Shown piece after piece: positions 38,200 to 39,890 of a stretch of 64,000 nucleotides of DNA (position 1 is the stretch's first letter; each line of letters begins with the position of its first letter). The stretch comes from a phage. A program made the position numbers and the translations under genes. The stretch lies in sequence record PZ179880.1; one strand, 5' to 3'. The notes beneath the pieces were generated by a model. That model ran no database searches and had not been told where the DNA came from. It saw only the letters and a program-made list of their open reading frames with translations.

Positions 38200-38500
38200 C
38201 CTTGCGGCAACCTTGTCGGGGTTCCACCTGCTAAGGCAAGTGTTTGTACGAAACGCCGGGATTCGAACCCGGTTATTAAGTAGTTGACGCTACTCAATAT
38301 TTTTAAAAGGCCATATCTCGACCATATCCGAACGTTCCGTCAAAAACGCTACTCGGCTTACGGCAAAGATATTTCCTCGAATCGATAATTCGGTGCGCCG
38401 TTTCTGCTGTGATAGTAAAGAGCCAGAACACAGTAAAACTGTGGGAGGAAACTATACTCCAGGGAACATCAGTCCGACGACTTACCGGTAGCGACCCGGT
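38200..38500 (-). ncRNA. Candidate small stable RNA(s): non-coding, structured region with a tRNA-like T-arm; cf. the T4 species 1/2 RNAs
   Basis: No ORF of 60 codons or more on either strand; local GC enrichment; CCGGGTTCGAATCCCGG T-arm-like hairpin; ends at a strong terminator. Confidence 0.35.
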
Positions 38501-38503
38501 TTC

Positions 38504-38854
38504 TTAATATTCTTTTAAAGAATCAATATATTCACGGCGTTTACGCCACAAATCAATTGCTTCATACGCGGATTCAGCATTTCGAATTAGCCGGCATTTA
38601 TGTAAAGACTTATGATTTTGATATTGTGTAGATAACGGAATTGTATCTAAAAGGTCTTTACGATCAAAATATTCGTAACCATCTAAACCAAATGAACGAT
38701 TTTTGAGAAATTGCCAATGACCATATTCGTTTTCGACATAAACATAATCTGCATGCTGATAAAGCAAATTAATTACACGTTCAGAAATAACAGTATCATT
38801 ATGATTAAAATAGAATGTTAAATCATGAACTACTAAATAAACATTACCTTTCAT
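38504..38854 (-). CDS. Hypothetical protein (116 aa)
   Basis: ORF between tRNA-Arg and the putative stable-RNA region. Confidence 0.5.
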   Translation of the reverse strand: MKGNVYLVVHDLTFYFNHNDTVISERVINLLYQHADYVYVENEYGHWQFLKNRSFGLDGYEYFDRKDLLDTIPLSTQYQNHKSLHKCRLIRNAESAYEAIDLWRKRREYIDSLKEY

Positions 38855-38872
38855 ATTTTCCTCACTTATAAT

Positions 38873-38948
38873 TGGTCGAGGCAGTAGGGATCGAACCTAC
38901 GACCTAGGACTTAGAAGGTCCTTGCTCTTCCTTCTGAGCTATGCCCCG
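38873..38948 (-). tRNA. tRNA-Arg (anticodon UCU), CCA encoded
   Basis: Manual cloverleaf: acceptor CGGGGCA/TGCCTCG, D-arm TAGCTCAG, anticodon loop CTTCTAA, T-loop GGTTCGATCC. Confidence 0.85.
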
Positions 38949-38951
38949 TAA

Positions 38952-39027
38952 TTGGGTGACCGATGGGAGTCGAACCCATGACTACGAGAATCACAATCTC
39001 GAGTTCTACCAACTGAACTACGGCCAC
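38952..39027 (-). tRNA. tRNA-His (anticodon GUG), discriminator C73, no encoded CCA
   Basis: Acceptor GTGGCCG/CGGTCAC, anticodon loop TTGTGAT, T-loop GGGTTCGACTCCC. Confidence 0.75.
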
Positions 39028-39120
39028 ATTAATACCTACTCCAACAATCAAGATGTCTTCACACGAAATTAAGAGAAGAGTGATCAGTTCAACCCCTATA
39101 ATCGCGTCAAGTAGGTATTA
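39028..39120 (-). ncRNA. Unassigned structured element inside the tRNA operon (not a tRNA)
   Basis: 11-bp perfectly complementary closing stem (TTAATACCTAC / GTAGGTATTAA) enclosing about 70 nt; no T-loop or D-loop. Confidence 0.3.
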
Positions 39121-39141
39121 ATGTGACAGTTGTCACAAATT

Positions 39142-39216
39142 TGGCGGACGTGATAGGATTCGAACCTATAACCAATCGCTTAACAGGCGATCGCTCTGCC
39201 ATTGAGCTACACATCC
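39142..39216 (-). tRNA. tRNA-Asn (anticodon GUU), CCA encoded
   Basis: Acceptor GGATGTG/CACGTCC, anticodon loop CTGTTAA, T-loop GGTTCGAATCC. Confidence 0.8.
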
Positions 39217-39220
39217 AAAT

Positions 39221-39307
39221 TGGTGGGGAGTGGTGGAGTCGAACCACCCGAGTCGCAATGACAATGGATTTACAGTCCACACCGCTACCTCTACGGGATA
39301 ACTCCCC
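39221..39307 (-). tRNA. tRNA-Tyr (anticodon GUA), class II with long variable arm, CCA encoded
   Basis: Acceptor GGGGAGT/ACTCCCC, anticodon loop CTGTAAA, variable arm about 15 nt, T-loop GGTTCGACTCC. Confidence 0.75.
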
Positions 39308-39317
39308 CAAATTAATT

Positions 39318-39392
39318 TGGTGGCCCTGGGTGGAATTGAACCACCATCTGGCGATTATGAGTCGCTTGCTTGAACCTTCCAGCTACAGGGCC
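39318..39392 (-). tRNA. tRNA with anticodon CAU; probably the Ile (AUA-reading, lysidine-type) species rather than Met
   Basis: Acceptor GGCCCTG/CAGGGCC with C4-G69 and C5-G68, anticodon stem-loop GCGACTCATAATCGC resembling bacterial tRNA-Ile2. Confidence 0.75.
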
Positions 39393-39393
39393 T

Positions 39394-39469
39394 TGGTGCT
39401 GATTGACGGAATCGAACCGCCGACCTTCTCATTACAAGTGAGTTGCTCTACCTACTGAGCTAAATCAGC
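39394..39469 (-). tRNA. tRNA-Thr (anticodon UGU)
   Basis: Acceptor GCTGATT/AATCAGC, D-arm TAGCTCAGTAGG, anticodon loop CTTGTAA. Confidence 0.85.
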
Positions 39470-39474
39470 AAAAC

Positions 39475-39564
39475 TGGCGGAGGCGATAGGATTTGAACCT
39501 ATGAGTCGCCGGAGCGACTGCCGGTTTTCAAGACCGGTGCATTAAACCACTCCGCCACGCCTCC
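39475..39564 (-). tRNA. tRNA-Ser (anticodon UGA), class II
   Basis: Acceptor GGAGGCG/CGCCTCC, anticodon arm CCGGTCTTGAAAACCGG, long variable arm. Confidence 0.85.
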
Positions 39565-39566
39565 AG

Positions 39567-39640
39567 TCTCCGTGGCAGGATTTGAACCTACGACATTCTG
39601 CTCCCAAAGCAGACGCTCTACCAAACTGAGCTACACGGAG
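39567..39640 (-). tRNA. tRNA-Pro (anticodon UGG), no encoded CCA
   Basis: Acceptor CTCCGTG/CACGGAG, anticodon loop TTTGGGA, T-loop GGTTCAAATCC. Confidence 0.85.
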
Positions 39641-39650
39641 TAAATTAAAT

Positions 39651-39724
<74 letters not shown>

Positions 39725-39728
39725 AAAT

Positions 39729-39816
39729 TTGGTGCGAGAAGTGGGACTCGAACCCACAAGGAAATCATTCCGCAGCATTTTAAGTGCTGTGCCTTTACCA
39801 ATTTGGCCATTCTCGC
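39729..39816 (-). tRNA. tRNA-Leu (anticodon UAA), class II
   Basis: Acceptor GCGAGAA/TTCTCGC, D-arm TGGCCAAATTGGTAAAGGC, anticodon loop CTTAAAA, long variable arm. Confidence 0.85.
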
Positions 39817-39817
39817 G

Positions 39818-39890
39818 CTGGGAATAAAGGACTCGAACCTTTGCATCCTGGAATCAAAATCCAGTGCCTTACCAACTTGGCTAATTCCCA
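39818..39890 (-). tRNA. tRNA-Gln (anticodon UUG), U1-A72 first pair, no encoded CCA; abuts tRNA-Leu
   Basis: Acceptor TGGGAAT/ATTCCCA, D-arm GCCAAGTTGGTAAGGC, anticodon loop TTTTGAT. Confidence 0.8.

What the first reader, a model, noticed from the sequence alone, without database searches (positions are those of the whole stretch)
39028..39141. Non-tRNA structured element embedded in the tRNA operon
Between tRNA-His and tRNA-Asn lies a 93-nt segment that cannot be folded as a tRNA (no T-loop or D-loop) yet is closed by an 11-bp perfectly complementary stem (TTAATACCTAC / GTAGGTATTAA). It is followed by a separate perfect palindrome, gtgaca-g-ttgtcac, at 39123-39136. Every other spacer in this operon is 1-10 nt, so a long, strongly structured insert co-transcribed with tRNAs is anomalous. 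It could be a small stable RNA, an RNase P/RNase E processing module, or the remnant of a mobile element.
Basis: seen in the sequence. Interest (0 to 1): 0.65.

Follow-up and report, generated by a model that had tools for sequence, protein, structure and literature searches.

The report
Conserved non-tRNA RNA in phage tRNA operon
The 114-base gap between two tRNA genes of this T4-like phage holds a conserved folded RNA that no database or genome record annotates; it is probably cut out of the tRNA precursor like T4's unexplained small RNAs C and D, and its function is unknown.

Summary
The window is a Tequatrovirus. Its tRNA operon lies on the minus strand, and ten spacers are 0-10 nt while Asn-His is 114 nt. 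That spacer holds a roughly 95-nt element, here called E (39028-39122, minus strand).

E is a three-way junction:
- P1, a 14-bp closing helix.
- P2, a long hairpin with an exchangeable tip.
- P3, a 4-bp hairpin with a conserved 7-nt loop, YCWUGAU.

Homologues occur in 356 phage records: seven Straboviridae-type genera plus a few Vequintavirinae. Every locus examined places E inside a tRNA cluster, in tRNA sense, 0-9 nt upstream of a tRNA (His, Met or Gln, or a remnant of His).

P1 and P3 covary strongly: 94% of cells are paired against 36-50% in slid controls, and 13 pairs show double changes. G·U pairs outnumber A·C 79 to 11, so selection acts on the tRNA-sense RNA.

E is not a tRNA, matches no Rfam family, and is not rnaC or rnaD, which lie elsewhere in the window. 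T4 and RB68 lack the E-plus-tRNA-His cassette.

The best reading is a new family of small RNA embedded in phage tRNA operons and released by tRNA-processing nucleases. Expression, termini and function were not tested. A cis role in tRNA-His maturation is the main rival.

The parts
39028..39122 (-). Element E: core of the conserved three-way-junction RNA (P1-P2-P3)
   Evidence: Covariance model R1 scores 114.6 bits on the minus strand at 39026-39124 and 21.3 bits on the plus strand. The fold has z = -4.6. Covariation was measured.
39109..39122 (-). P1 5' strand (AUUAAUACCUACUU)
   Evidence: Pairs with 39028-39041. Of its 14 pairs, 8-9 show compensatory double changes across genera, and about 98% of cells are paired.
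39028..39041 (-). P1 3' strand (GAGUAGGUAUUAAU). Its last base, U at 39028, is position -1 of tRNA-His.
   Evidence: The exact abutment to tRNA-His +1 is conserved in 14 relatives.
39061..39107 (-). P2: long hairpin with base ACGCG/CGUGU and a variable tip (type A here)
   Evidence: The tip is replaced by an unrelated hairpin (type B) in STP4-a and PKO111, and by other hairpins in Cronus, Marfavirus and CHI14. The basal helix is conserved in sequence but shows no compensatory change.
39043..39057 (-). P3: 4-bp hairpin (GACA/UGUU) with the 7-nt loop UCUUGAU at 39047-39053
   Evidence: Two of the four pairs covary through four pair types (AU, GC, UA, CG). The closing G.U is present in 14 of 16 sequences, and the loop YCWUGAU is conserved in all 16.
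39042..39042 (-). Junction base J3/1 (G). The other junction bases are G at 39108 (J1/2) and GAA at 39058-39060 (J2/3).
   Evidence: These bases are nearly invariant in alignments A1 and A3.
39123..39136 (-). Palindrome GUGACA..UGUCAC, the optional 5' hairpin H0
   Evidence: Folds as a 6-bp hairpin. The complete hairpin occurs only in Tequatrovirus and STP4-a. Karamvirus and Cronus keep only the 3' half, UGUCAC, and Jiaodavirus, CHI14, W70 and Marfavirus have neither.
39017..39040 (-). 3' arm of the extended inverted repeat: P1 3' strand plus tRNA-His nucleotides 1-11. Its partner is 39110-39133.
   Evidence: The arms are 24 nt and 88% complementary, the longest inverted repeat in the window. 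The MFE of the precursor uses it.
38954..39027 (-). tRNA-His (GUG), the downstream partner of E. RNase P cleavage at its 5' end would create E's 3' end.
   Evidence: E and tRNA-His are gained or lost together, and both are absent in RB68 and T4.
39142..39216 (-). tRNA-Asn (GUU), the upstream neighbour. Its 3' processing would create E's 5' end.

Best explanation
E is a gene-like module for a small structured RNA that travels inside phage tRNA operons. It has no promoter or terminator of its own, so it is transcribed as part of the polycistronic tRNA precursor. RNase P cutting at the 5' end of the downstream tRNA would define its 3' end. The endo- and exonucleolytic trimming that matures the upstream tRNA's 3' end would define its 5' end. 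The 14-bp helix P1 joins both termini and should protect the released 95-115-nt RNA from exonucleases, so it would accumulate as T4 RNAs C and D do. Its working surface is probably the invariant P3 loop (YCWUGAU, which resembles a His/Gln-type anticodon loop) together with the small conserved junction, read by an unknown protein or RNA partner. The P2 tip is an exchangeable module. What is shown: conservation, RNA-level structural selection, strand, and genomic context. What is inferred: co-transcription, excision, stability and trans action.
For: There are 356 phage records with a homologue. In the rows listed the element itself is unannotated; any feature under the match is a neighbouring tRNA or a hypothetical protein. 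In every locus examined, E lies in a tRNA cluster, in tRNA sense, but with different neighbours: Asn-E-His, Gln-E-His, Gln-X-E-His, E plus a remnant of His, Gly-E-Gln, and E-Met. Its conservation therefore does not depend on one particular tRNA. Covariation on a MAFFT alignment gives 94.8% paired cells against 36-50% when partners are slid, 13 pairs with double changes, and 0 of 500 shuffles as good. The picture is the same for 16 sequences aligned to the model. G.U outnumbers A.C 79 to 11 within the helices, and the model scores 114.6 bits on the sense strand against 21.3 on the antisense strand. No sigma-70, MotA-type or late promoter and no terminator lies inside E, whereas candidate promoters lie upstream of the operon. 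Precedent exists: T4 RNAC and RNAD are small stable RNAs transcribed from the tRNA region, with unknown roles (PMC3014915, PMC9697503; annotated in T4).
Against: There is no RNA-level evidence: no Northern blot, small-RNA sequencing or end mapping, and nothing in the searched literature. In six genera E sits exactly against tRNA-His or its remnant, with zero spacer, and its flank is complementary to the tRNA's 5' half. That pattern fits a cis role equally well. The P2 basal helix has no compensatory support, and single-sequence MFEs disagree about the interior of the fold. No partner or target has been identified.
Confidence: 0.55

Rival explanations
1. E is a cis-acting leader that controls folding or 5' maturation of the downstream tRNA, chiefly tRNA-His. 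P1 ends at nucleotide -1 and stacks on the acceptor stem. The flank (UGUCAC and bases upstream) can extend P1 into tRNA-His nucleotides 1-11, sequestering the 5' half. The alternative hairpin H0 would release it. E would thereby gate or time RNase P cleavage.
For: The E-tRNA-His junction has zero spacer in 14 relatives from five genera, always with U at -1 paired to the first base of P1. A sixth genus, STP4-a, keeps only a GTGG remnant of the tRNA at the same junction. The extended helix is the longest inverted repeat in the window. It is preferred over the cloverleaf by 2.5-7 kcal/mol in the window, Karamvirus and Cronus. The bases opposite tRNA nucleotides 7-12 differ between lineages yet mostly still pair (read). 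E and tRNA-His are gained or lost together in Tequatrovirus. These tRNA-His genes encode no G-1, so their 5' maturation is unusual in any case.
Against: E also occurs 9 nt upstream of tRNA-Met (Marfavirus) and tRNA-Gln (W70), and persists in STP4-a where tRNA-His is deleted. Jiaodavirus and CHI14 lack the extension, and their MFE keeps the cloverleaf or nearly so. A mere folding spacer would not need an invariant P3 loop and junction. Thermodynamic models ignore tRNA tertiary stabilisation.
Confidence: 0.25
2. E is a new small self-cleaving or ligand-binding RNA (a ribozyme or riboswitch-like three-way junction) that processes or regulates the tRNA precursor.
For: The architecture is a compact three-way junction with nearly invariant junction bases (G / GAA / G) and an invariant loop. 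Phages are known to place HDV-like 'theta' ribozymes next to tRNAs (PMC10879173).
Against: No Rfam ribozyme or riboswitch model matches, even at E<=10 (E<=0.01 for relatives). The HDV-type topology and catalytic C are absent: the base before the closing 3' strand is G or A. The hammerhead core is absent: CUGANGA is missing and position 17 would be G. The putative P2-P3 loop-loop pairing is not conserved (sequence inspection).
Confidence: 0.07
3. E is a decayed tRNA gene (a pseudo-tRNA) or other relic with no function of its own.
For: P3 resembles an anticodon arm. Its loop UCUUGAU differs from the phage tRNA-Gln loop UUUUGAU at one position and shares five of seven bases with the tRNA-His loop (read). 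It lies among tRNAs.
Against: There is no D-arm, no T-arm and no cloverleaf. The closing helix is 14 bp. Compensatory evolution and conservation across seven genera, plus transfer into Vequintavirinae, indicate ongoing selection.
Confidence: 0.05
4. E is a DNA-level element (a MITE-like inverted-repeat element, a protein operator or a homing-endonuclease target), or it encodes the 22-aa antisense ORF at 39053-39121(+).
For: E has terminal inverted repeats and behaves as a cassette that is present or absent. A small plus-strand ORF exists and some records annotate a hypothetical protein there.
Against: The 79:11 excess of G.U over A.C and the 93-bit strand difference show selection on one RNA strand, not on duplex DNA. 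There is a single copy per genome. By inspection of the sequences, the antisense ORF shrinks to 6 codons in Marfavirus and changes sequence in Cronus and STP4-a, and it has no Shine-Dalgarno sequence.
Confidence: 0.03

Closest known systems
Bacteriophage T4 species 1 and species 2 RNAs (rnaC, rnaD)
   Same: They are small (119-139 nt), non-tRNA RNAs encoded in the T-even tRNA region on the tRNA strand. They are made from the tRNA transcripts and are stable, and their function is unknown (PMC3014915, PMC9697503; T4 annotation). They also show an exchangeable internal hairpin: the window's rnaD differs from RB68 rnaD in this way.
   Different: They are not homologous to E. Model R1 finds nothing in the rnaC/rnaD regions of T4 or RB68. 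The window has its own rnaD and rnaC at about 38388-38507 and 38244-38382. rnaC ends in a tRNA-like T-arm, whereas E has none. E sits between tRNAs and against tRNA-His rather than after tRNA-Arg, and T4 lacks it.
tRNA-associated HDV-like 'theta' ribozymes of gut phages (PMC10879173)
   Same: They are small structured non-tRNA RNAs placed directly beside phage tRNA genes and implicated in tRNA end formation.
   Different: Theta ribozymes lie with their cleavage site within 5 nt of a tRNA 3' end. They have the HDV double pseudoknot and a catalytic C, their hosts are Bacteroidota and Bacillota, and the associated tRNAs mostly lack CCA. E abuts the 5' end of a tRNA, is a plain three-way junction without that C, its hosts are Enterobacteriaceae, and the neighbouring tRNA-Asn encodes CCA.
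Spacer-derived small RNAs of bacterial tRNA operons, such as E. coli 3'ETS-leuZ (from my own knowledge, not tested here)
   Same: They are functional RNAs released as by-products of tRNA precursor processing.
   Different: Those are short, largely unstructured base-pairing sponges that depend on Hfq. E is a closed, highly structured three-way junction with no terminator-like 3' end.
Anticodon-arm mimics such as the thrS mRNA operator (from my own knowledge)
   Same: A hairpin with a 7-nt loop copies part of a tRNA anticodon loop. The P3 loop shares U32, U35, G36, A37 and U38 with the phage tRNA-His and tRNA-Gln loops.
   Different: The resemblance is only five or six of seven loop bases. Position 33 is C rather than the universal U, the stem is 4 bp rather than 5, and no binding partner is known. 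This is a lead, not a test.

Membership tests
tRNA (Rfam RF00005 / ARAGORN) | Cloverleaf with D-arm, anticodon arm, T-arm (GTTCRANYC) and a 7-bp acceptor stem | tested here: not met
   ARAGORN tRNAs and none in 39028-39141. The Rfam tRNA and tRNA-Sec models give no hit there even at E<=10. The closing helix is 14 bp and only two hairpins are present.
T4 rnaC / rnaD (species 1 and 2 RNAs) | Location in a T-even tRNA region on the tRNA-sense strand, without its own promoter or terminator | tested here: met
T4 rnaC / rnaD (species 1 and 2 RNAs) | Sequence and structure homology to rnaC or rnaD | tested here: not met
   R1 scores at most 16 bits anywhere in the T4 and RB68 tRNA/rnaC/rnaD loci. The true rnaC and rnaD homologues lie at 38244-38507.
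T4 rnaC / rnaD (species 1 and 2 RNAs) | Accumulates as a discrete stable small RNA in infected cells | not testable with these tools
   This needs a Northern blot or small-RNA sequencing. No such data were found in the searched literature.
HDV-like / theta ribozymes | Nested double pseudoknot (P1, P1.1, P2, P3, P4) with a catalytic C at the start of J4/2, and a cleavage site at a tRNA 3' end | tested here: not met
   No HDV-family Rfam hit. The base preceding the closing 3' strand is G, or A in CHI14. E's helix starts 20 nt after tRNA-Asn in this window. Family criteria are taken from PMC10879173.
Hammerhead ribozyme | Three-way junction with core strands CUGANGA, GAA and a cleavable H17 (not G) | tested here: not met
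   GAA is present, but the P1-P2 strand is a single G and the P3-P1 strand is G. The CUU preceding it is base-paired and covaries. No Rfam hammerhead hit.
Any curated RNA family (Rfam 15, 4227 models) | Score at or near a family's gathering threshold | tested here: not met
   Nothing overlaps 39028-39141 at gathering threshold or at E<=10. Nothing overlaps the homologues in seven other loci at E<=0.01.
Intrinsic terminator / attenuator | GC-rich hairpin followed by a U-run | tested here: not met
   No terminator-like site in 39028-39141. P1 is followed directly by tRNA-His.
MITE-like or other DNA inverted-repeat element | Terminal inverted repeats conserved as DNA (strand-symmetric), multiple copies, target-site duplication | tested here: not met
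   One copy per genome. The mismatches in the arms are G.U on one strand only, 79 against 11 A.C. No homologue in 5,426 E. coli genomes. The pattern scan of 185,579 bacterial and archaeal species genomes gave only two matches, in Vibrio and an alphaproteobacterial MAG, neither detected by R1 at E<=1e-6.

The most novel reading that the evidence does not exclude
E is a natural structured leader that acts as a switch on tRNA maturation. Through mutually exclusive pairings (the H0 hairpin, or the 24-bp extended helix that swallows the 5' half of tRNA-His), it would gate RNase P processing of a phage tRNA-His that, unusually for a bacterial system, encodes no G-1. The gating might respond to a protein or ligand read by the conserved junction and P3 loop. 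An equally unexcluded reading is that the released RNA is an anticodon-arm (NUG) decoy for a host enzyme or tRNA-targeting defence nuclease that recognises His/Gln-type anticodon loops.
Probability: 0.12. Interest if true: 0.8.

Novelty: new member of a known kind. Interest (0 to 1): 0.55.

Why it matters
T-even phages have been known for about fifty years to make small stable non-tRNA RNAs from their tRNA operons (RNAC, RNAD), and their function is still unknown. E is a third, unrelated RNA of this kind. It has far clearer comparative support: strong covariation, seven genera and transfer into an unrelated phage subfamily. It also has a small, sharply defined conserved surface, one 7-nt loop plus a five-base junction, which makes it genetically tractable. 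It is missing from Rfam, and the element itself is unannotated in the GenBank records examined, some of which carry a spurious 'hypothetical protein' call there instead. Because it is tied to a tRNA-His that lacks the encoded G-1 identity element, studying it could also show how phage tRNAs are matured and used, at a time when phage tRNAs are being recognised as counter-defence tools (for example PMC11464382). At minimum, the result supplies a new RNA family model for phage annotation.

Tried and rejected
**Known RNA classes**
- tRNA or pseudo-tRNA: rejected by ARAGORN and by Rfam at gathering threshold and at E<=10.
- Homology to rnaC/rnaD: rejected.
- Theta/HDV-like and hammerhead ribozymes: checked against their defining cores and rejected.

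**Signals and coding**
- An internal promoter (sigma-70, MotA box or late TATAAATA) or a terminator inside E: none found.
- Coding potential: every ORF overlapping the region runs through tRNAs, or is a non-conserved 22-aa antisense frame.

**Alternative pairings**
- A pseudoknot between the upstream UCACAU and the conserved GUGUGA: possible in four lineages but absent in Jiaodavirus, W70, Marfavirus and Cronus, so dropped.
- A kissing interaction between the P2 tip and the P3 loop (AUCA:UGAU or UCAUGA:UCAUGA): fits tip types A and B but not Cronus, Marfavirus or CHI14, so dropped.
- RegB (GGAG) targeting: GGAG is absent in W70 and CHI14 and lies inside a helix, so not pursued.

**Wider searches**
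- The scan of species-representative bacterial and archaeal genomes gave two matches that R1 did not detect at E<=1e-6.
- No match in E. coli genomes.
- The neighbouring 'X' module of Karamvirus and STP4-a is conserved in sequence but folds no better than shuffles (z = -0.2).
- Six full-text literature searches found no description of this element. A seventh, on tRNA-His G-1, found nothing about phage tRNA-His.

Full report
**What the window is**

The region is 99.6% identical over 1,051 bp to many Tequatrovirus (T4-like) coliphages, including Yersinia phage fPS-65, YUEEL01 and HP3. ARAGORN and Rfam find eleven tRNA genes on the minus strand at 38873-39890, in transcription order Gln, Leu, Gly, Pro, Ser, Thr, Met/Ile2, Tyr, Asn, His, Arg. 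Ten spacers are 0-10 nt. The Asn-His spacer (39028-39141) is 114 nt. Homologues of T4's small RNAs rnaD and rnaC lie further downstream at about 38388-38507 and 38244-38382, so the insert is not one of them.

**Checking the observation**

There are 13 perfect pairs (39028-39040 with 39110-39122), and a 14th is U.G on the minus-strand RNA.
- The minus-strand RNA folds at -35.3 kcal/mol, z = -4.6 against dinucleotide shuffles.
- The fold is a small 5' hairpin (the palindrome at 39123-39136) followed by a closed three-way junction.
- Among all inverted repeats in the 64-kb window with arms within 150 nt, this one is the longest.
- No tRNA model and no other Rfam family matches the spacer at gathering threshold or at E<=10.

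**Relatives**

The 114-nt spacer finds 356 phage records. About 196 are Tequatrovirus records at 95% identity or more. The rest are at 60-90% identity and come from Klebsiella, Enterobacter, Salmonella, Cronobacter, Erwinia and Serratia phages. In the rows listed the element itself carries no annotation; a few show a neighbouring tRNA or a hypothetical protein under the match.

I fetched representative loci and located their tRNAs. The contexts are:

| Lineage | Context |
|---|---|
| Tequatrovirus | Asn-E-His |
| Jiaodavirus, some Karamvirus, Winklervirus (CHI14) | Gln-E-His |
| Other Karamvirus | Gln-X-E-His |
| Roskildevirus (Cronus) | Gln, about 230 nt, then E-His |
| Gelderlandvirus STP4-a | E followed by only the first four bases (GTGG) of a deleted tRNA-His |
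| Marfavirus | E, 9 nt, then tRNA-Met at the head of the cluster |
| Vequintavirinae W70 and A7_1 (a different subfamily) | Gly-E, 9 nt, then Gln |

T4 and RB68 have neither E nor tRNA-His. In RB68, Asn is followed by Arg after 4 nt.

The constants are that E sits inside a tRNA cluster, on the tRNA strand, just upstream of a tRNA. The neighbours vary. A covariance model built from 13 sequences finds exactly one copy per genome.

**Structure and selection**

RNAalifold on a MAFFT alignment recovers three helices:
- P1, 14 bp, joining the two ends.
- P2, a long hairpin.
- P3, 4 bp with a 7-nt loop.
- The junction strands are G, GAA and G.

Pair counts on that alignment are as follows:
- 94.8% of cells are paired, against 36-50% when partners are slid by 1-3 columns.
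- 13 of 28 pairs have compensatory double changes.
- 0 of 500 column shuffles reach the observed covariation.

Sixteen sequences aligned to the model give the same picture. P1 has 8-9 covarying pairs. One P1 position runs through U-A, U.G and C-G within Tequatrovirus alone, and the window carries the C-G state, which is why its stem looks perfect. In P3, two of the four pairs cycle through AU, GC, UA and CG. The closing G.U is present in 14 of 16 sequences, and the loop YCWUGAU is present in all 16.

The basal helix of P2 is conserved in sequence but has no compensatory support. Single-sequence MFEs disagree about the interior, so that part of the model is weaker.

The tip of P2 is modular. 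Type A (this window, Karamvirus, some Jiaodavirus, W70) and an unrelated type B (STP4-a and other Jiaodavirus) sit on identical P1/P3 frames within one genus. Cronus, Marfavirus and CHI14 carry further variants.

**Which strand, and RNA or DNA?**

Within the helices there are 79 G.U pairs against 11 A.C. The model scores 114.6 bits on the minus strand and 21.3 bits on the plus strand. Selection therefore acts on an RNA of tRNA polarity, not on duplex DNA. This, together with the single copy per genome, rules out a MITE-like or operator reading.

ORFs overlapping E either run through tRNAs or form a 22-codon antisense frame. That frame is not conserved; in Marfavirus it is 6 codons (inspection of sequences).

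**How it most likely works**

No promoter-like or terminator-like site lies inside E. A MotA-box-like site and a late TATAAATA lie upstream of the operon. E is therefore most simply part of the tRNA precursor.

From established knowledge of bacterial tRNA processing:
- RNase P cleavage at the downstream tRNA would create E's 3' end. In this window that is exactly 39028.
- Trimming of the upstream tRNA's 3' trailer would create its 5' end.
- A 14-bp terminal helix would block 3' exonucleases.

This is the way T4 RNAC and RNAD arise, and their roles remain unknown (PMC3014915; PMC9697503). The invariant P3 loop and junction imply a specific partner.

One lead, not a test: the window's P3 loop UCUUGAU differs from the phage tRNA-Gln anticodon loop UUUUGAU only at position 33. 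It also shares U32, U35, G36, A37 and U38 with the tRNA-His loop UUGUGAU. E sits between tRNA-Gln and tRNA-His in most genera.

I put about 0.9 on 'conserved functional structured RNA of tRNA polarity' and about 0.55 on 'excised, stable and acting through P3 and the junction'.

**The main rival: a cis role at tRNA-His**

- In 14 relatives from five genera, P1 ends at nucleotide -1 of tRNA-His with no spacer. STP4-a, a sixth genus, keeps the same junction with only a remnant of the tRNA.
- The sequence just 5' of P1 (UGUCAC and bases upstream) can extend P1 into tRNA-His nucleotides 1-11. This gives the 24-nt, 88% inverted repeat.
- The predicted MFE of the precursor prefers this extended helix to the cloverleaf by 2.5 kcal/mol in the window, 4.6 in Karamvirus and 7.2 in Cronus. 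It is not preferred in Jiaodavirus and is barely preferred in CHI14.
- These tRNA-His genes have U, not G, at -1 although C73 is present. The G-1 identity element that bacteria normally encode (PMC10100707) is therefore missing.
- Against a purely cis role: E also occurs upstream of Met and Gln with a 9-nt spacer, it survives deletion of tRNA-His in STP4-a, and a spacer would not need an invariant loop.
- I give this rival about 0.25. The two readings are not mutually exclusive.

**Comparison with known systems**

- Closest in kind are T4 rnaC and rnaD. They share location, strand and likely biogenesis, but there is no homology.
- Theta (HDV-like) ribozymes are also tRNA-adjacent phage RNAs. 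However, they sit at tRNA 3' ends, have a double pseudoknot and a catalytic C, and occur in phages of Bacteroidota and Bacillota (PMC10879173). E meets none of these criteria.
- The hammerhead core is absent.
- No Rfam family matches E or its homologues.
- No homologue was found in 5,426 E. coli genomes.
- A pattern scan of species-representative bacterial and archaeal genomes gave only two matches, neither detected by the model at E<=1e-6.
- The metagenome scan returned only known variants among the candidates inspected.
- The family therefore appears confined to large virulent phages of Enterobacteriaceae.

**Verdict**

The element is real, conserved and unannotated in the records examined. 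It is a new RNA family of a known kind, the small non-tRNA RNAs embedded in T-even tRNA operons. Function, expression and termini remain to be shown. Interest is moderate, at 0.55. The comparative evidence is unusually clean and the element is experimentally tractable, but the category is not new and no mechanism has been demonstrated.

Noticed in passing
window 38954-39028 (minus); also L001, L004, L007, L009, L011, L013, L015, L016, L017, L032: The phage tRNA-His genes encode U, not G, at position -1 although C73 is present. The G-1:C73 identity element that bacteria normally encode is therefore missing in all 14 relatives checked. How this tRNA is matured and charged in E. coli is unclear.
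   Followed up: partly
window 38953-38956: The 3' end of tRNA-His reads CAC|CCA in this window, whereas every relative reads CAC|CCCA. One C of the run is missing. This is either a real variant that leaves a 3-nt CCA overhang directly after the helix, or a homopolymer sequencing error.
   Followed up: partly
L007:1089-1200 and L006:1023-1135: A second conserved non-tRNA spacer module ('X', about 110 nt) lies between tRNA-Gln and E in some Karamvirus phages and in STP4-a. It has no Rfam hit and folds no better than shuffles (z = -0.2).
   Followed up: partly
window 38388-38507 (minus) compared with L008:1554-1673: The rnaD homologue keeps both ends of RB68 rnaD, but its central 45 nt or so are replaced by unrelated sequence. 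This is the same kind of internal hairpin swap seen in E's P2 tip. rnaC (38244-38382) folds strongly (z = -4.5) and ends in a tRNA-like T-arm.
   Followed up: partly
L005 (Escherichia phage W70, Vequintavirinae) 1486-1583: E occurs in a few rV5-like phages (W70, A7_1) at about 87% identity to the Tequatrovirus copy, between tRNA-Gly and tRNA-Gln. This implies horizontal transfer of the module between unrelated phage groups.
   Followed up: partly
window 39986 and 40236 (minus strand): A MotA-box-like middle-promoter match and an exact late-promoter TATAAATA lie upstream of the tRNA operon. Another MotA-like match at 38768 lies inside the ORF between tRNA-Arg and rnaD.
   Followed up: no
window 39221-39307 (minus): tRNA-Tyr scores only 30.3 bits against the Rfam tRNA model (gathering score 29). 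Some GenBank records of near-identical phages annotate it as pseudo, tRNA-Val or tRNA-OTHER.
   Followed up: no
window 38500-38855 (minus): A 117-aa ORF of unknown function sits between tRNA-Arg and rnaD where T4 has none. In T4, rnaD follows tRNA-Arg by 1 nt. The ORF is present in RB68 as well, so it is not linked to E.
   Followed up: no
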